Position numbers and translations under genes: made by a program
The notes under the pieces: generated by a model
The model's input: the letters and a program-made list of their open reading frames with translations, nothing else
Told to the model about the DNA's origin: nothing
Databases searched by the model: none
Source: a virus
Virus record (IMG/VR): IMGVR_UViG_3300020463_001735
Coordinates: 16,187-80,186 of that record
Length of the DNA stretch: 64,000 nt
Strand: one strand, 5' to 3'
In this document: piece by piece, positions 52,256 through 57,085 of the stretch
Layout of the letters: each line of letters begins with the position of its first letter
Numbering within the stretch: the first letter of the stretch is position 1

Positions 52256-53266
52256 TTGTTTAATAAAGCGGCTGTCTTTACCGACATTCATTTTGGTTTA
52301 AAAGGCAACTCTAAAGTACATAATGAAGATTGTGAACGTTTTATTGATTGGTATATAGAACAAGCACAAAAAAATAACTGTGACACTGGAATATTTTGTG
52401 GTGATTGGCACCACAATAGAAACAGTCTTAATTTAACTACAATGGATGTTACTATCCGATGTATGGAAAAACTAGGAGAAGTATTTGAAAATTTTTACTT
52501 CTTTGACGGCAATCACGATTTATACTATAAAGATCGACGTGATGTTAACTCTACTGCTTTTAGCAAATATATTCCTGGAATTACATTTATAGATAAAATT
52601 ACAACTATAGAAGATGTTACTCTTGTACCGTGGCTAGTAGGCGAAGAATGGAAAAAAATTCCTAAAATTAAAAGCAAGTATATGTTTGGTCATTTTGAAC
52701 TACCTAGTTTCTATATGAATGCAATGGTTCAAATGCCTGATACAGGAGAACTGCAAGCAAAGCATTTTGAACATCAAGAATATGTATTTTCAGGACATTT
52801 TCATAAAAGACAAAAACAAGGAAAAGTACATTATATTGGTAATGCACTTCCGCATAACTATGCAGATGCTTGGGATGATAATAGAGGAATGATGATCCTT
52901 GACAGAAAAAACAATGCTGAGCCAGAATATTTAAACTGGACAGCCTGTCCCAAGTATAGGACTACAACATTAAGTAAACTACTTGATCCAGATTCAGATA
53001 TAATTAAATCTGACATGTATCTGCGTGTAACACTTGACTTGCCTATCTCTTACGAAGAAGCACAATTTATAAAAGAAACATATATTAACAATCACAAGTG
53101 TAGAGAAATAACACTTATTCCACAAAAACAAATTGAAGAAATATCTACAGAACTTGACATCAGCAAATTTGAGTCAGTAGATGAAATTGTAAGTAAAGAA
53201 ATATCTGCTATTGACAGCGATAATTTTAACAAAAAAATGCTATTGGACATCTATAACGAACTATGA
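52256..53266 (+). CDS. gp47: Recombination endonuclease subunit (Mre11/SbcD-like)
   Basis: TDIHFG, GDW, GNHD, SGHFH metallophosphoesterase motifs. Confidence 0.92.
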   Translation: MFNKAAVFTDIHFGLKGNSKVHNEDCERFIDWYIEQAQKNNCDTGIFCGDWHHNRNSLNLTTMDVTIRCMEKLGEVFENFYFFDGNHDLYYKDRRDVNSTAFSKYIPGITFIDKITTIEDVTLVPWLVGEEWKKIPKIKSKYMFGHFELPSFYMNAMVQMPDTGELQAKHFEHQEYVFSGHFHKRQKQGKVHYIGNALPHNYADAWDDNRGMMILDRKNNAEPEYLNWTACPKYRTTTLSKLLDPDSDIIKSDMYLRVTLDLPISYEEAQFIKETYINNHKCREITLIPQKQIEEISTELDISKFESVDEIVSKEISAIDSDNFNKKMLLDIYNEL

Positions 53267-55035
53267 TAAAAGTAAAAGATTTAACAGTAAAAAACTTTAT
53301 GAGTGTTGGTAATCAAACGCAGGCTGTTGATTTCAACAAAGAGCAACTGACACTCGTGCTTGGTGAAAATCTCGATCAAGGAGGTGACGATTCAGGCTCA
53401 CGTAACGGTACAGGCAAAACAACAATTATTAACGCATTGTCTTACGCACTGTACGGCCAAGCATTGACCAACATCAAACGAAATAATCTTATCAATAAGA
53501 CTAACTCTAAAGGTATGTTGGTCACTCTACACTTCGAAAAAGACAATCAAGATTTTCGAATAGAACGCGGACGTTCTCCTAATGTGTTAAGATTTTATAT
53601 AGACAATCAAGAACAAGAACTAATTGATGAATCACAAGGCGATAGCCGTAGAACACAAGAATATATAAATGACTTGTTAGGAATGAGTCATGACATGTTC
53701 AAACATGTTGTTGCACTTAACACTTACACAGAACCTTTTTTAAGCATGCGGCAAAATGATCAACGTGCTATTATTGAACAGCTATTAGGTATAACTATTC
53801 TGTCAGAAAAAGCTGAAAGCCTTAAGGATCAAATAAGACAAACGAAAGATGCAACAACACAAGAAACTCTTAAAATTGAAGCAATACAAACTGCTAATAG
53901 TAAAATTGAAACAACTATAAACAGTCTTAAAAATAATCAACGTGCCTGGCAAGCTAAAAAAATAAAAGATATAGAAAAACTACAAATTAGTATAGATGAA
54001 TTAGTGCGTGTTGACATTGAAAAAGAATTAGAAGCACATGAAAAATTACAAAATTGGACAGAGTTAAACAGTGCAATTACGGCTCTTAACAAAGAAAAAG
54101 GCACACTAGAGAGTGCATTACTACGTGCTACTAAGTCTGTAGATAAAGTTGAAAAAGACATCGCAAATTTACAAGACGCTGTATGTTATGCATGTGGTCA
54201 AGAGCTACATGAAGATAAAAAACAAGAAATTGTAGGAAATAAAAATAAAGAATTAAACGACGCAATGTCATATCAAGTAGAAGTTGCTGGTAAGTTAGAT
54301 GAAATTATTAGAGGTTTGAATGATATCGGAAACATTAACGGAAAACCGCAAACGTTTTATGAGACAATAAGAGAAGCATATGATCATAGAAATAACCTTG
54401 AAGGATTGCGTACAAGTTTAAGAAACAAAGAACAAGATAATGATCCATATCAACCACAGATAGACGAACTGTCAACAACGGCAATGCAGGAACTAGATTG
54501 GACACCTGTAAACGATTTAACAAATTATAAAGATCATCAAGAATTTTTACTTAAACTTCTTACTAACAAAGACTCTTTTATACGTAAAAAAATTATTGAT
54601 CAAAATCTTGCATATCTAAACAATAGATTAACCTATTACTTAGACAAATTAGGATTGCCGCATCAGGTTGTTTTTATGAATGATTTAAACGTTGAAATTA
54701 CACAACTTGGACAAGATCTTGACTTTGATAATTTGAGTAGAGGTGAACGTAACAGATTAATACTTGGTATGAGTTTTTCTTTTAGAGATGTTTGGGAAAG
54801 TTTATACCAGAATGTAAATTTATTGTTTATTGACGAATTGATAGATTCAGGAATGGATACAGCTGGTGTAGAAAGTTCTCTAGCTGTAATCAAAAAGATG
54901 GGCCGAGAGAGGGATAAAAATGTATTCCTTATTTCACATAAGGATGAACTAATAGGCAGAGTCAATCATTTAATGAAAGTTATAAAAGAAAATGGCTTTA
55001 CATCATATGAGAATGATATTGAGATAATAGAATGA
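53263..55035 (+). CDS. gp46: Recombination ATPase subunit (Rad50/SbcC-like)
   Basis: KNFMSVGN, NGTGKT Walker A, CYACGQ zinc hook, LSRGE, LFIDE, ISH. Confidence 0.93.
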   Translation: MIKVKDLTVKNFMSVGNQTQAVDFNKEQLTLVLGENLDQGGDDSGSRNGTGKTTIINALSYALYGQALTNIKRNNLINKTNSKGMLVTLHFEKDNQDFRIERGRSPNVLRFYIDNQEQELIDESQGDSRRTQEYINDLLGMSHDMFKHVVALNTYTEPFLSMRQNDQRAIIEQLLGITILSEKAESLKDQIRQTKDATTQETLKIEAIQTANSKIETTINSLKNNQRAWQAKKIKDIEKLQISIDELVRVDIEKELEAHEKLQNWTELNSAITALNKEKGTLESALLRATKSVDKVEKDIANLQDAVCYACGQELHEDKKQEIVGNKNKELNDAMSYQVEVAGKLDEIIRGLNDIGNINGKPQTFYETIREAYDHRNNLEGLRTSLRNKEQDNDPYQPQIDELSTTAMQELDWTPVNDLTNYKDHQEFLLKLLTNKDSFIRKKIIDQNLAYLNNRLTYYLDKLGLPHQVVFMNDLNVEITQLGQDLDFDNLSRGERNRLILGMSFSFRDVWESLYQNVNLLFIDELIDSGMDTAGVESSLAVIKKMGRERDKNVFLISHKDELIGRVNHLMKVIKENGFTSYENDIEIIE

Positions 55036-55244
55036 GTATAGAAGACGATATACACGATAAGTTGACGAAGGCTTATATGCAGTATTTCAAGGCTAACGAA
55101 AAATTTGAAAGCCGTAACTCTGTACGCACACATAGAGAAACAAGACGCTGGTTGCGTGAAATCAGAAGTCTTGCTAAGTTGCGTATGGATGAAATACACA
55201 TTAAGCACAACACAAGTCGTGTAACCAAAAAAGAAGGCAACTAA
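55032..55244 (+). CDS. Small basic helical protein (possibly Hc1-like)
   Basis: 70 aa, Arg/Lys-rich; ATGA-coupled to gp46. Confidence 0.5.
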   Translation: MSIEDDIHDKLTKAYMQYFKANEKFESRNSVRTHRETRRWLREIRSLAKLRMDEIHIKHNTSRVTKKEGN

Positions 55245-55268
55245 GGCTAAAGATCGGTATATAAGTTC

Positions 55269-55694
55269 ATGCAGTGGACTTATAACGGTAAAGTGATAGA
55301 CTCTATATCCGAAGAGTATGAAGGATTTGTGTATCTTATTACTAACACCACTACCGGGCAGAAATATGTAGGCAAAAAACTAGCAAAGTTTAAAACTACT
55401 AAGCCACCATTAAAAGGCAAAAAAAATAAAAGACGAGGCTACAAAGAAAGCGATTGGAGAGACTATTGGGGATCTTCAGATAGATTGCAACAAGACGTAG
55501 ACAAGTTAGGCCCAAAAAAATTCACAAGAGAAATACTTTATTTTTGTAAAAGCAGAGCAGAAATGAGTTACATAGAGGCTAGAGAACAATTTGACCGCCG
55601 TGTGTTAGAGACGAATGATTATTACAACGGTATTATAAATGTTAGAGTTGGCGGTTCAGATAAGTTGCGTAAGGCACTACTAGAAAAAAAATAG
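55269..55694 (+). CDS. Minimal GIY-YIG (Seg-like) endonuclease domain protein
   Basis: GFVY...YVG, YWGSS, conserved Glu (YIEARE), YYN. Confidence 0.8.
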   Translation: MQWTYNGKVIDSISEEYEGFVYLITNTTTGQKYVGKKLAKFKTTKPPLKGKKNKRRGYKESDWRDYWGSSDRLQQDVDKLGPKKFTREILYFCKSRAEMSYIEAREQFDRRVLETNDYYNGIINVRVGGSDKLRKALLEKK

Positions 55695-55978
55695 GCAAAC
55701 CAGGACACTATTGATCGTATGATCCGCTTTGAGACTGCGTACCTCGCCGTCAGATACTAGCGAGTCCAATAAGCTGTATGCTACAAAAACCCTAAGCACT
55801 AGGAACGAAGCTAGGGATAGCACTATTAAGTGTGATGTCGACGTAGGTTGGGAAAGGTCAGAGCCCAGTAGCATAGTTAAATACCTACTTCCGATCTCGG
55901 CTGTGCGAACTCACATGAAGCTTGAGGTAGATGGAACCGCTGTTAGGTTCCGTCTGACTGAACAATCTACATGAAACG
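55695..55978 (+). ncRNA. Putative structured ncRNA with a pseudoknot (family unknown)
   Basis: GC-richer intergenic region with 8-9 helices, including TATGCTAC/GTAGCATA crossed by GTAGGT/ACCTAC and an 11-bp stem at 55928-55956; G-U pairs favour the + strand. Confidence 0.6.
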
Positions 55979-56056
55979 TAAGTGCTTCGCACTTATTATT
56001 AAACGAAGTTAATAGTTTGAGCGAAAGCGAAAACTAATTGCTACGAAGTAGCAATT
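55979..56056. repeat. Four abutting hairpins with C-GAA-G or GCGAAAGC loops
   Basis: TAAGTGC-TTC-GCACTTA; TATTAAAC-GAA-GTTAATA; TAGTTT-GA-GCGAAAGC-GA-AAACTA; AATTGCTAC-GAA-GTAGCAATT. Confidence 0.85.
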
Positions 56057-56086
56057 GATAAATATATTAGCAACAAGGAACGCAGA

Positions 56087-57085
56087 ATGTTTGTGAGTGA
56101 AATACTAAGTGAAACCGAGTATAAGGTAACAGTGTCTGGTACTGGTCAAAGTAAAAGTTTTAATGTTATAAATGTAGATACTGGTGAAACTGTAGGTAGA
56201 CATAGAAACAGTGCTATGGCAAATAAACAGAAGCAATCACTTGTCAAAAAACTACCTACTCCTGCAGATAAACTTAAAAAAATAGCAAATACAAAAGGGC
56301 AAACTGTTGATAGAGCTAAAGGCGTCAGAGCAGCAGACCAATATCTAGACAAGAAAGATAAAGCTAAAGATATAGCTAAAAAGGGCAAAAATCCAAAAGA
56401 GCTAGGAAAAGGATTTTTAAAAAAATTAGGATTAGGTCCGCAGAAATGGTTTGGACCATTTCTACAATTCTACATATCGATTGATCAAATAGGAACTTTA
56501 ATTTATAATTTTAATGACATTTATATAAAATCAGGATGTAATGCTAGAGATCCATCAGTAAATGCTTATCACAGGGCTATAGGCCAGGAAGTGACAGGTA
56601 TTTTTATTGCTACTGCCGCATCTGCGTTAGCTGGCGGCGCCGCATCACGAGGACTTAAGAAGATAAAGGATCTTAAGACTACGCTCCAACTAATAGGAAA
56701 CATCACTGTTGCTGCACCTGTTGTTGGATGGATAGCTAGGGTAATTTCTTTTATAGGAATCGAAGCCGCTTTCTATGCACTAGGAAAAGCATTAGGTAGC
56801 AGTAAACTTGCAGAAGGAATGGCTGATTGGTTTATGACAACAGCTTTTACAAAAGCACAATTAGTAGACTATGTAGCAACTTTTGATCCTGAAACATATA
56901 AAGTTTGTCAAAGAAGAGATGAAAATTTTGTTGATTCAACAGATGAAGATGAATACTTTGTAGAACAAACAGTAAGCAAAACTGCTGTCAAAAATGATGT
57001 TATGAAGATTATCAAGGATGATCCTAAATTAATGTCAATGGTGAAAAAAATAAAATCTCAAAAAACTAAAGCAAAGGCAACTTAG
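56087..57085 (+). CDS. Hypothetical late protein, possibly an internal head or ejected protein
   Basis: TAAATA at 56059-56064; N-terminus MFVSEILSE; basic region and hydrophobic Gly/Ala hairpin. Confidence 0.55.
   Translation: MFVSEILSETEYKVTVSGTGQSKSFNVINVDTGETVGRHRNSAMANKQKQSLVKKLPTPADKLKKIANTKGQTVDRAKGVRAADQYLDKKDKAKDIAKKGKNPKELGKGFLKKLGLGPQKWFGPFLQFYISIDQIGTLIYNFNDIYIKSGCNARDPSVNAYHRAIGQEVTGIFIATAASALAGGAASRGLKKIKDLKTTLQLIGNITVAAPVVGWIARVISFIGIEAAFYALGKALGSSKLAEGMADWFMTTAFTKAQLVDYVATFDPETYKVCQRRDENFVDSTDEDEYFVEQTVSKTAVKNDVMKIIKDDPKLMSMVKKIKSQKTKAKAT

What the first reader, a model, noticed from the sequence alone, without database searches (positions are those of the whole stretch)
55269..55978. 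Minimal GIY-YIG nuclease followed directly by a ~285-nt pseudoknotted RNA-like element: candidate nuclease-RNA system
Seen: the 141-aa protein is essentially only a GIY-YIG catalytic domain with a Lys/Arg-rich insertion (KTTKPPLKGKKNKRRG). A non-coding, GC-richer stretch starts at its stop codon, in a genome whose other intergenic gaps are under about 130 nt, and much of it is base-paired. Helices: GATC/GATC (55713-24) and CTCGC/GCGAG (55743-64). An 8-bp helix TATGCTAC/GTAGCATA (55777-84/55868-75) closes a junction of three hairpins (55790-816, 55820-33, 55849-67). GTAGGT (55843-48) inside that junction pairs with ACCTAC (55883-88) outside it, forming a pseudoknot. Further hairpins lie at 55891-900 and 55902-15, with an 11-bp stem at 55928-56. 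Known: Seg/I-TevI homing endonucleases get specificity from C-terminal DNA-binding domains, which are absent here. A compact nuclease beside a pseudoknotted RNA is the layout of IscB/TnpB OMEGA systems, which use RuvC/HNH rather than GIY-YIG. Inference: the RNA may be a scaffold or guide for this nuclease, a ribozyme, or an R-loop primer RNA for replication. Adjacency could also be coincidental.
Basis: partly seen in the sequence, partly recalled or inferred. Interest (0 to 1): 0.85.

Follow-up and report, generated by a model that had tools for sequence, protein, structure and literature searches.

The report
Twin-box phage RNA behind nuclease gene
The gene-free stretch after a small DNA-cutting-enzyme gene of this uncultured marine T4-like phage encodes a real, knotted RNA of about 300 bases from an uncatalogued family. 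The enzyme is common without the RNA and is sometimes replaced by an unrelated nuclease, so nothing shows that the RNA guides it, and the RNA's job is unknown.

Summary
The observation largely holds. Window 55695-56086 is the longest ORF-free and most GC-rich stretch of the 64-kb window. It is conserved behind the same 141-aa GIY-YIG gene in hundreds of IMG/VR contigs, and it folds into covarying helices on the + strand. No Rfam family matches the window, although relatives carry Rfam Polynucleobacter-1 as their 5' domain.

Two 7-nt 'boxes' (55913-19 and 55969-75) stay identical to each other in 244 of 251 homologues while changing between lineages. No complementary partner was found.

The guide-RNA reading is not supported:
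- The protein family (PHROG 447, I-TevI-like fold) occurs in 765 phage records without the RNA.
- It is more conserved than gp46.
- Six relatives carry a PD-(D/E)XK nuclease in the same slot before the same RNA.

The most likely reading is an independent structured non-coding RNA at the end of the recombination-gene operon, with unknown function. This scan reached the same 'twin-box RNA' reading earlier on other genomes. The PD-(D/E)XK replacement was not in the excerpts of those notes that I saw.

The parts
55269..55694 (+). 141-aa stand-alone GIY-YIG nuclease gene (SegE-type catalytic domain, PHROG 447)
   Evidence: Pfam PF19835, E 3.9e-33. PHROG 447, E 9.5e-37. AF2 model pLDDT 94. Best PDB fold is the I-TevI catalytic domain 1LN0 (prob 0.97, TM 0.68 on target). 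Residues F20, Y22, Y33, G35, K37, R87, E103 and N120 are invariant in 32 homologues.
55703..55767 (+). RNA 5' domain. Closing helix GGAC/GTCC (55703-06/55764-67), hairpin GATC/GATC (55713-16/55721-24), and helix CGCT/AGCG (55725-28/55759-62) around a conserved TTGAG...TCAGATACT internal loop and an inner hairpin.
   Evidence: On alignment A5 (26 sequences), 97.3% of cells are paired, 9 of 15 pairs have compensatory changes, and 0 of 500 shuffles do as well.
55777..55875 (+). Core junction. It contains helix P-A (55777-84/55868-75), hairpin H1 (55790-94/55812-16, with a conserved loop containing AGGAACGAAGC), variable-length hairpin H2 (55820-33), the invariant strand GATGTCGACGTAGGT, and hairpin H3 (55849-52/55864-67).
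   Evidence: Covariation on A1 and A2. The 32-nt pattern spanning 55835-55866 matches exactly (IUPAC pattern, four degenerate positions) in at least 120 IMG/VR contigs.
55843..55888 (+). Pseudoknot: GTAGGT (55843-48) pairs with ACCTAC (55883-88).
   Evidence: Paired in 115/115 sequences. One compensatory T-A to C-G event (L064/L145) and 6 G-C to G-U changes. The rival partner ATCTAC (55965-70) is broken in L064/L145.
55856..55959 (+). Probable second long-range pairing: H3 loop GGTCAG (55856-61) with CTGACT (55954-59).
   Evidence: 100% paired in 115 sequences. There are 18 one-sided changes, all wobble-compatible, and no breaks, but also no double compensatory change. This pairing is inferred.
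55909..55920 (+). Twin box 1: ACTC followed by the 7-mer ACATGAA (55913-19).
   Evidence: The 7-mer is identical to box 2 in 244 of 251 homologues across 17 different 7-mers. Normalised mutual information with the box 2 columns is 1.0, 1.0, 1.0 and 0.83. No other column comes close.
55929..55955 (+). 10-bp hairpin H6: AGATGGAACC / GGTTCCGTCT.
   Evidence: 96.6% paired. Only G-U-type one-sided changes occur, which fits an RNA read from the + strand.
55965..55976 (+). Twin box 2: ATCT followed by the 7-mer ACATGAA (55969-75).
   Evidence: As for box 1.
55980..55994 (+). Hairpin T1: AAGTGC-TTC-GCACTT, followed by a T/A-rich tail. It is a likely 3' end, weak terminator or stabiliser.
   Evidence: The stem covaries strongly and most relatives have a TTCG loop. 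It did not pass the simple + strand terminator scan.
56013..56064 (+). Conserved stem TAGTTT/AAACTA (56013-18/56031-36) around GAGCGAAAGCGA, then a variable 9-bp hairpin (56037-56056), then a T4-late-promoter-like ATAAATA (56058-64) before the variable gene at 56087.
   Evidence: Conservation and compensatory changes in A1. The late-promoter reading rests on my own knowledge of the T4 TATAAATA consensus.

Best explanation
Window 55700-55995 (possibly extending to about 56060) encodes a member of an uncatalogued family of large structured non-coding RNAs ('twin-box RNA'). The family belongs to uncultured marine Kyanoviridae-like (pelagimyophage / Melnitz-related) phages.

The RNA is read from the + strand. 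It is made either as the 3' end of the gp47-gp46-GIY early operon or from a promoter of its own. It folds into:
- a 5' domain;
- a junction closed by a long helix and locked by a pseudoknot, with probably a second loop-to-strand pairing;
- a 3' domain that presents two identical single-stranded 7-nt boxes, each just 3' of a helix, ahead of a stable terminal hairpin.

The mechanism I think most likely is a trans-acting scaffold. Its invariant core holds the two boxes as equivalent recognition sites for one partner present twice, or for a dimer, either protein or nucleic acid. This step is inferred and the partner is unknown.

The upstream 141-aa GIY-YIG protein is an independent, strongly conserved housekeeping nuclease of the recombination module. 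It may be structure-specific. It is not a homing endonuclease and not an RNA-guided enzyme. Its adjacency to the RNA reflects conserved synteny at the end of that module.
For: THE RNA IS REAL AND CONSERVED
- It was found in 58 of the 80 loci fetched through the protein; many of the rest end before it. The core pattern occurs in at least 120 IMG/VR contigs.
- Covariation on 115 sequences: 87.6% of cells paired against 81.1% in shuffles, 403 double-change cells against 112, and 0 of 500 shuffles as good. Versions with the partner slid by 1-3 columns are only 36-41% paired.
- The 5' domain is 97% paired with 9 of 15 pairs compensatory.
- Hairpin insertions vary in length at one fixed site, next to 32 invariant bases.

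IT IS NON-CODING
- Only 22 of 118 distinct homologues keep any open frame across the core, and indel lengths are not multiples of 3.

STRAND
- Many G-U and U-G pairs would be A-C mismatches on the other strand.

IT IS NOT CATALOGUED
- No Rfam hit at gathering score, nor at E up to 10. No tRNA or tmRNA was found.

TWIN BOXES
- The flanks ACTC and ATCT stay different in almost all 251 sequences (box 1 reads GCTC in six), which argues for selection on the 7-mer rather than gene conversion.

THE NUCLEASE IS INDEPENDENT
- 765 phage records carry the family, while blastn finds the RNA region in none of 50,697 phage records.
- The complete genomes of Melnitz, ACG-2014d and phiN3 have the gene without the RNA.
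- The protein is 82-97% identical where gp46 is 59-96%.
- A PD-(D/E)XK nuclease (PF24608) replaces it before the same RNA in L212, L218, L233, L256, L289 and L305.
- In L292 the nuclease gene is inverted and a TTGACT-N17-TATATA promoter-like site precedes the RNA.

EXPRESSION
- Metatranscriptome contigs from three studies cover the nuclease gene, and those of one study (two runs) also cover the core. This is weak evidence.
Against: - No transcript ends, abundance or processing could be shown. The RNA-library data are contigs, may contain DNA, and their depth over the core is inflated by conservation.
- No partner for the boxes was found, so the scaffold mechanism is inference only.
- Much of the core never varies, so the pseudoknot rests on one compensatory event and the second long-range pairing on one-sided changes only.
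- In both RNA classes the RNA always follows a small DNA nuclease gene of one fold or another, apart from the inverted case. This could still mean a functional tie to 'a nuclease' that these data cannot see.
- Single-sequence folding energy is unremarkable (z = -2.0).
Confidence: 0.55

Rival explanations
1. The RNA is a cofactor of the upstream nuclease. It would act as a guide or scaffold that supplies the DNA specificity the 141-aa GIY-YIG protein lacks.
For: - The RNA lies directly behind the GIY gene in 76/76 loci of the window's class and 71/78 of the second class.
- The protein lacks NUMOD or HTH DNA-binding modules.
- It has a conserved basic beta-hairpin.
- Where GIY is missing, another small nuclease takes its place.
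Against: - The protein family occurs in 765 phage records, including three complete genomes, without the RNA.
- An unrelated PD-(D/E)XK fold precedes the same RNA, so the RNA is not tailored to the GIY fold.
- There is no hypervariable guide-like segment. The variable parts are hairpin insertions.
- The boxes take only 17 forms, and L305 (PDDEXK) shares its box with GIY loci.
- The boxes do not covary with the GIY start region.
- Synteny alone explains the adjacency, since gp46 is also always upstream.
Confidence: 0.05
2. The RNA is a cis-acting element of the operon's 3' end. It would be a ligand- or protein-sensing switch or attenuator that controls read-through past hairpin T1 into the variable downstream gene, or an elaborate 3' stabiliser of the early mRNA.
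For: - An invariant, pseudoknotted, aptamer-like core lies directly upstream of a stable covarying hairpin with a U/A-rich tail.
- Box 2 abuts that hairpin.
- GTAGGT has three similar possible partners: ACCTAC, ACTCAC and ATCTAC. This would allow alternative folds.
Against: - The downstream gene differs between relatives and appears to have its own late-promoter-like site (56058-64).
- No sequence complementary to the boxes exists in cis that could serve as an anti-terminator.
- T1 is a weak terminator by the simple scan.
- A mere stabiliser would not need 300 nt with invariant junctions.
Confidence: 0.2
3. The RNA is a ribozyme or self-processing RNA. The two identical boxes would be equivalent cleavage or ligation sites, releasing or circularising the hairpin-bearing segment of about 56 nt between them.
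For: - The core is invariant and double-pseudoknotted with variable peripheral hairpins, as in known ribozymes.
- Identity of two sites is what a single active site acting twice would require.
Against: - No Rfam ribozyme family matches.
- No internal guide complementary to the boxes was found.
- No box-to-box joint appears in four metatranscriptome runs, although contigs are a weak test.
Confidence: 0.08
4. The conserved feature acts at the DNA or R-loop level. It would be a replication origin, primer RNA or recombination hot-spot next to the gp46/gp47 recombination genes, with the boxes as re-annealing or crossover sites.
For: - It lies at a boundary with a hypervariable region.
- 18 of 80 contigs end within 150 nt after the GIY stop.
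- RNA modules are mosaic between relatives.
- Structure-specific nucleases sit next door.
- A requirement for identity of short direct repeats recalls crossover cores of site-specific recombination and template-jump sites (my own knowledge).
Against: - G-U-tolerant covariation and long-range pseudoknots point to a folded single RNA strand rather than duplex DNA.
- Contig breaks are expected wherever conserved sequence abuts variable sequence in mixed populations.
- No recombinase or initiator gene is linked.
- 56 bp is very short for a DNA excision loop.
Confidence: 0.08
5. The stretch is a decayed coding remnant, for example a lost C-terminal DNA-binding domain of a Seg-like gene, or it encodes the 81-aa ORF at 55729-55974.
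For: An 81-aa ORF spans the core in this window.
Against: - The ORF is open in only a minority of homologues and indels ignore the reading frame.
- The short protein form is the conserved family length of 138-152 aa.
Confidence: 0.01

Closest known systems
Polynucleobacter-1 RNA motif (Rfam RF01718; Weinberg et al. 2010, PMC2864571)
   Same: In relatives L017 and L079 a full-length Polynucleobacter-1 match (72-73 bits, gathering score 37) starts exactly at the GIY stop codon. It forms the 5' domain of an RNA whose 3' twin-box domain is homologous to the window's. It too is a candidate structured RNA of unknown function from aquatic metagenomes.
   Different: The window has no match to this model even at E up to 10. 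Its 5' domain is a different module. The conserved core junction, pseudoknot and twin boxes are not part of the Rfam model.
I-TevI catalytic domain and T4 Seg-type free-standing GIY-YIG homing endonucleases
   Same: It shares the GIY-YIG fold (1LN0 is the top PDB fold match), matches the SegE_GIY-YIG Pfam domain, and conserves Tyr/Tyr/Arg/Glu/Asn positions.
   Different: It has no C-terminal DNA-binding module. It is syntenic and more conserved than gp46 rather than sporadic. The family profile is 148 aa. A true HEG (246 aa, GIY-YIG plus NUMOD3) is seen separately in L289.
IscB/TnpB OMEGA RNAs and HEARO RNA (my own knowledge)
   Same: A compact nuclease gene lies next to a large structured non-coding RNA.
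   Different: The nuclease fold is different (GIY-YIG or PD-(D/E)XK, not RuvC/HNH). There is no transposon end and no variable guide segment. The nuclease is widespread without the RNA. No Rfam HEARO or OMEGA match was found.
Large 'ornate' phage-associated RNAs of unknown function such as GOLLD and ROOL (my own knowledge; the preprint 10.1101/2024.12.08.627333 was listed but not read)
   Same: It is phage-borne, several hundred nucleotides long, has multiple pseudoknots and variable peripheral hairpins around invariant junctions, and has no known function.
   Different: There is no sequence or model match. It is smaller. It sits at a fixed position behind a nuclease gene. It has the twin-box feature.

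Membership tests
GIY-YIG nuclease superfamily (SegE_GIY-YIG, PF19835) | Profile match above the curated cut-off over the whole domain | tested here: met
   114.7 bits against a cut-off of 25, profile 1-123/123.
GIY-YIG nuclease superfamily (SegE_GIY-YIG, PF19835) | GIY and YIG motifs plus conserved Arg, Glu and Asn of the active site | tested here: met
   F20-V21-Y22, Y33-x-G35, R87, E103 and N120 are invariant or nearly so in 32 homologues at 42-86% identity. Mapping them onto I-TevI residues is inferred from the fold match.
Homing endonuclease (Seg / I-TevI type) | A separate DNA-binding module (NUMOD, zinc finger or HTH) that gives site specificity | tested here: not met
   Only the catalytic domain is present. 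The family profile is 148 aa long.
Homing endonuclease (Seg / I-TevI type) | Sporadic, mobile distribution among close relatives | tested here: not met
   The gene is present and syntenic after gp46 in 76/76 loci, and is more conserved than gp46.
RNA-guided nuclease systems (IscB/TnpB-OMEGA-like) | Obligate co-occurrence of nuclease and RNA | tested here: not met
   The nuclease occurs without the RNA in 765 phage records and three complete genomes. The RNA occurs with a different nuclease in 6 loci.
RNA-guided nuclease systems (IscB/TnpB-OMEGA-like) | A variable guide segment at one end of a constant scaffold | tested here: not met
   Variation is confined to hairpin insertions, module swaps and the two 7-nt boxes, which take 17 forms.
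Rfam Polynucleobacter-1 (RF01718) | Covariance-model score at or above gathering (37 bits) | tested here: not met
   No hit in the window at E up to 10. The threshold is met only in relatives L017 and L079.
Group I intron carrying a GIY-YIG ORF | Interrupts a host gene and matches a group I core model | tested here: not met
   No Rfam Intron_gpI hit. The flanks are a 70-aa ORF and a variable gene, not split exons.
tmRNA (known in the related phage Melnitz, PMC9004378) | tRNA-like domain and tag reading frame detectable by ARAGORN or Rfam | tested here: not met
   ARAGORN finds none in the window, and there is no Rfam tmRNA hit.
Structured non-coding RNA (generic) | Base pairs maintained by compensatory changes beyond shuffled and slid controls | tested here: met
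   0 of 500 shuffles reach the observed values, and slid controls are 30-41% paired against 88-97%.
Structured non-coding RNA (generic) | A discrete transcript | tested here: inconclusive
   Only assembled metatranscriptome contigs were available. They cover the region but show no ends or strand.

The most novel reading that the evidence does not exclude
The RNA works together with whichever small structure-specific DNA nuclease sits upstream (GIY-YIG or PD-(D/E)XK). It might act as an R-loop or branch-forming RNA, or as a templating RNA whose two identical boxes are re-annealing (jump) sites for a polymerase. That would be comparable in logic to the direct repeats that flank the template of defence-associated reverse-transcriptase RNAs (my own knowledge). 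If so, nuclease plus RNA would form a new kind of phage recombination, replication or counter-defence module.
Probability: 0.07. Interest if true: 0.9.

Novelty: new variant of a known kind. Interest (0 to 1): 0.6.

Why it matters
If confirmed, this is a large, double-pseudoknotted RNA family carried by hundreds of abundant, uncultured ocean phages and missing from RNA catalogues. It has one feature for which I know no precedent among catalogued bacterial or phage RNAs: two short single-stranded boxes that must stay identical to each other while drifting between lineages. That constraint is a concrete handle for finding the RNA's partner.

The work also reassigns a widespread phage protein family, usually mis-annotated 'NAD synthetase' or 'homing endonuclease'. 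The better fit is a conserved stand-alone GIY-YIG nuclease of the recombination module that is interchangeable with a PD-(D/E)XK nuclease.

Tried and rejected
- Rfam at gathering score on the whole window, and at E up to 10 on 55200-56200: only chance-level hits.
- ARAGORN: no tRNA or tmRNA.
- blastn of 55000-56300 against 50,697 phage records: no match.
- PDB sequence searches with the protein and with a 32-sequence profile: no hit.
- Cis partner for the boxes: exact 7-mer complements show no consistent position. With G-U allowed, the only recurrent site is the 3' strand of helix P-A in some lineages. It is absent in the window's lineage, so I judged it coincidental.
- Boxes against the GIY start-codon context: no covariation.
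- Box motif elsewhere in the window: 13 matches against 16.5 expected.
- Coding readings (the 81-aa ORF, small ORFs starting at the box AUGs, ribosomal bypass between the boxes): frames are not conserved. Some relatives hit a stop almost at once or, as in L175, have no AUG in the box.
- Box palindromes as dimerisation sites: the idea fails for most variants on inspection.
- RNAalifold's alternative AGCC/GGCT pairing: departures only by unpaired cells. The alternative TAGAT/ATCTA pairing fits worse than the extended hairpin.
- Metatranscriptome contigs: no cover beyond 55988 and no box-to-box joint. I draw no conclusion from either, because relatives diverge there and contigs drop rare forms.
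- Endonuclease VII (PF02945) and PDDEXK_15 (PF24608) were not found in Melnitz or ACG-2014d. Neither search hit any control genome, so this is only a lead for the resolvase idea.
- Genome-collection scan with the core pattern: only three MAG contigs, all with gp46/GIY context. These are probably phage DNA in the bins, not a cellular origin.
Full report
CONTEXT
The window is part of an 80-kb IMG/VR virus record. It comes from a T4-like marine phage. The local gene order on the + strand is:
- a gp47-like Mre11-type phosphoesterase (52256-53266);
- a gp46-like Rad50-type ATPase (53263-55035);
- a 70-aa ORF;
- the 141-aa GIY-YIG gene (55269-55694);
- 392 nt without a credible gene;
- a 332-aa gene that differs between relatives.

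The closest cultured relative of the GIY protein is the OM43 phage Melnitz (Kyanoviridae, 63% identity). The 392-nt stretch is the largest stretch free of ORFs of 90 aa or more in the window. Its GC is 0.43 against 0.338 overall, peaking at 0.47.

IS THE ELEMENT REAL?
A search with the protein found at least 598 IMG/VR stretches encoding a relative; the best 80, all 82-97% identical, were fetched. The non-coding element was recovered by nhmmer in 58 of those 80 loci; many of the rest end before it. A 32-nt pattern from the core (55835-55866) matches exactly, allowing four degenerate positions, in at least 120 further contigs.

The alignments show the hallmarks of a structured RNA. Long invariant single-stranded blocks are present. 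Hairpins of very different length, 0 to about 130 nt, are inserted at one fixed point. Helices change sequence while keeping their pairing.

- 87.6% of cells paired, against 81.1% in column shuffles;
- 403 double-change cells, against 112;
- 0 of 500 shuffles as good as the observed values;
- 36-41% paired when the 3' partners are slid by 1-3 columns.

The element is non-coding. Only 22 of 118 distinct homologues keep any frame open from the core to box 2, and length differences ignore the reading frame. The 81-aa ORF in this window is therefore fortuitous.

HELIX-BY-HELIX CHECK
Supported:
- The 8-bp helix 55777-84/55868-75. Its inner five pairs have three to four pair types each.
- Hairpin 55790-816.
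- The base of the variable hairpin at 55820-33.
- The stem 55929-38/55946-55. It is 96.6% paired with only G-U-type one-sided changes.
- The terminal hairpin 55980-94.

Compatible but weakly tested, because the bases hardly vary:
- Hairpin 55849-67, with one compensatory change.
- The pseudoknot GTAGGT/ACCTAC. It is paired in 115/115 sequences and has one compensatory T-A to C-G event, in L064/L145. That same event breaks RNAalifold's rival partner ATCTAC.

Added here:
- A probable second long-range pairing, GGTCAG (55856-61, in the hairpin loop) with CTGACT (55954-59). It is 100% paired, with 18 wobble-compatible one-sided changes and no breaks.

Not supported:
- Hairpins 55891-900 and 55902-15.
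- CTCGC/GCGAG at 55743-64 (60% paired).

In place of that last helix, the 5' part forms a well-supported domain. On this domain 97.3% of cells are paired, 9 of 15 pairs are compensatory, and 0 of 500 shuffles do as well.

The many G-U pairs favour an RNA read from the + strand.

TWIN BOXES
ACTC-ACATGAA (55909-19) and ATCT-ACATGAA (55965-75) lie 54-67 nt apart in relatives. The 7-mers take 10 forms in the window's class and 7 in a second class. They are identical to each other in 244 of 251 sequences. The four variable box columns have normalised mutual information of 1.0, 1.0, 1.0 and 0.83 with their twins, and no other column comes near that.

The flanking tetramers differ between the two boxes in almost every sequence (box 1 reads GCTC in six), which argues for selection on the 7-mer rather than gene conversion. 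I found:
- no complementary partner in cis;
- no covariation with the nuclease start region;
- no enrichment of the motif in the genome;
- no conserved small ORF;
- no box-to-box junction in RNA-library contigs.

The constraint remains unexplained. Two equivalent recognition sites for one partner is the simplest reading.

WHAT IS KNOWN THAT RESEMBLES IT?
Rfam has nothing for the window. In more distant relatives (L017, L079) the first 141 nt after the nuclease stop codon are a full-length match to Polynucleobacter-1 (RF01718, 72-73 bits). That is a candidate RNA of unknown function described by Weinberg et al. 2010 (PMC2864571). Those relatives share the window's twin-box 3' domain.

The family is therefore modular. 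At least three 5' modules and many hairpin inserts are exchanged around a constant architecture. This mosaicism explains why 18 of 80 contigs end within 150 nt after the nuclease gene.

THE NUCLEASE
The protein is a complete SegE-type GIY-YIG domain. It belongs to PHROG 447, which has a 148-aa profile and is mis-named 'NAD synthetase'. The model is confident (pLDDT 94), and the I-TevI catalytic domain is its best PDB fold match. The active-site-type residues are invariant.

The family occurs in 765 phage records, including cyanophages, Felixounaviruses, rhizobiophages and Melnitz. In those records it is followed by ordinary genes after 28-148 nt.

The RNA is absent from the phage collection. 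It is also absent from the complete genomes of Melnitz, ACG-2014d and phiN3. Within the lineage the protein is more conserved than gp46. This is the profile of a housekeeping enzyme, not of a selfish homing endonuclease and not of an enzyme that depends on this RNA.

THE NUCLEASE SLOT
Scanning for the second RNA class gave 78 loci with room upstream. Of these, 71 have the GIY gene. In six (L212, L218, L233, L256, L289, L305) the slot between gp46 and the RNA holds a protein of 168-188 aa instead. That protein belongs to PF24608, 'phage putative PDDEXK endonuclease', and to PHROG 244, annotated as resolvase-like. In L292 the GIY gene is inverted and a sigma-70-like promoter precedes the RNA.

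So the RNA is not tied to the GIY fold, and it can be a transcription unit of its own. Equally, it is always next to some small DNA nuclease. I read this as a 'recombination-nuclease slot' at the end of the gp47-gp46 module, with the RNA gene after it. The small GIY protein may be the structure-specific nuclease of these phages. Melnitz and ACG-2014d show no endonuclease VII or PDDEXK_15 match, but neither search hit any control genome, so this is only a lead.

EXPRESSION
Nine RNA-library runs from six studies hold 4-14% of the sampled words of 54800-56400. Four of them were laid on the stretch. Their contigs, from three studies, cover the nuclease gene, and the two runs of one study also cover gp46 and the RNA core. 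Summed depth peaks on the core. Depth over a conserved block is inflated by related strains, DNA carry-over cannot be excluded, and contigs show no ends or strand. I count this as weak support only.

VERDICT
The guide-RNA interpretation is not supported. The element is a member of a novel, widespread 'twin-box' RNA family of unknown function.

Earlier follow-ups in this scan reached the same reading on other genomes. My analysis was made before I read them and agrees with them. It adds window-specific coordinates, the corrected 5' domain, and the PD-(D/E)XK replacement, which was not in the excerpts of those notes that I saw.

Noticed in passing
L212, L218, L233, L256, L289, L305 (gene directly upstream of the RNA, e.g. 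L212:5046-5549 minus strand): A PF24608 PD-(D/E)XK nuclease of 168-188 aa (PHROG 244, resolvase-like) occupies the slot between gp46 and the twin-box RNA in place of the GIY-YIG gene. This is a non-orthologous replacement of one small nuclease by another.
   Followed up: partly
L292 (GIY at about 1123-1554 on the strand opposite to the RNA): The GIY gene is inverted relative to the RNA, and a TTGACT-N17-TATATA promoter-like site lies just upstream of the RNA's 5' domain. A gp26-like gene precedes them. This may be a true rearrangement or an assembly chimera.
   Followed up: no
L289:10060-10797 (minus strand): A typical free-standing homing endonuclease (246 aa, GIY-YIG N-terminus plus NUMOD3) is inserted just upstream of the PD-(D/E)XK gene. 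This shows what a true HEG looks like in this neighbourhood.
   Followed up: partly
window 56013-56064: After the terminal hairpin comes a conserved stem TAGTTT/AAACTA enclosing GAGCGAAAGCGA (compensatory changes in relatives), then a variable 9-bp hairpin, then ATAAATA resembling a T4 late promoter. Another first-reader note (e1-6105145) reads these as DNA mini-hairpins. On the minus strand two of them score as terminator-like.
   Followed up: partly
window 56087-57085 and the homologous positions in relatives: The gene downstream of the RNA is hypervariable. Only 2 of the first 80 loci (3 of about 160 checked) have a recognisable homologue, at 23-52% identity. Many contigs break in or just after the RNA's 5' part.
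   Followed up: partly
L205 (JBDNIA010000124.1), L206 and L207 (PBPT01000016.1, PBPT01000082.1): The gp46-GIY-RNA locus occurs on contigs binned into a Crocinitomicaceae MAG and, twice, into a Neomarinimicrobiota MAG (contigs of 335 kb and 153 kb). These are probably phage DNA in the bins or chimeric contigs.
   Followed up: no
window 55269-55694 and the phage records: This GIY-YIG family (PHROG 447) is annotated 'NAD synthetase' in many GenBank phage records. Nothing seen here supports that name.
   Followed up: partly
window 55245-55268: Just before the GIY start codon the window reads GGTATATAAGTTC, while most relatives read GTAAGTAAGTTC or similar. The conserved TAAGT-containing motif so close to the start codon is unexplained.
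   Followed up: no
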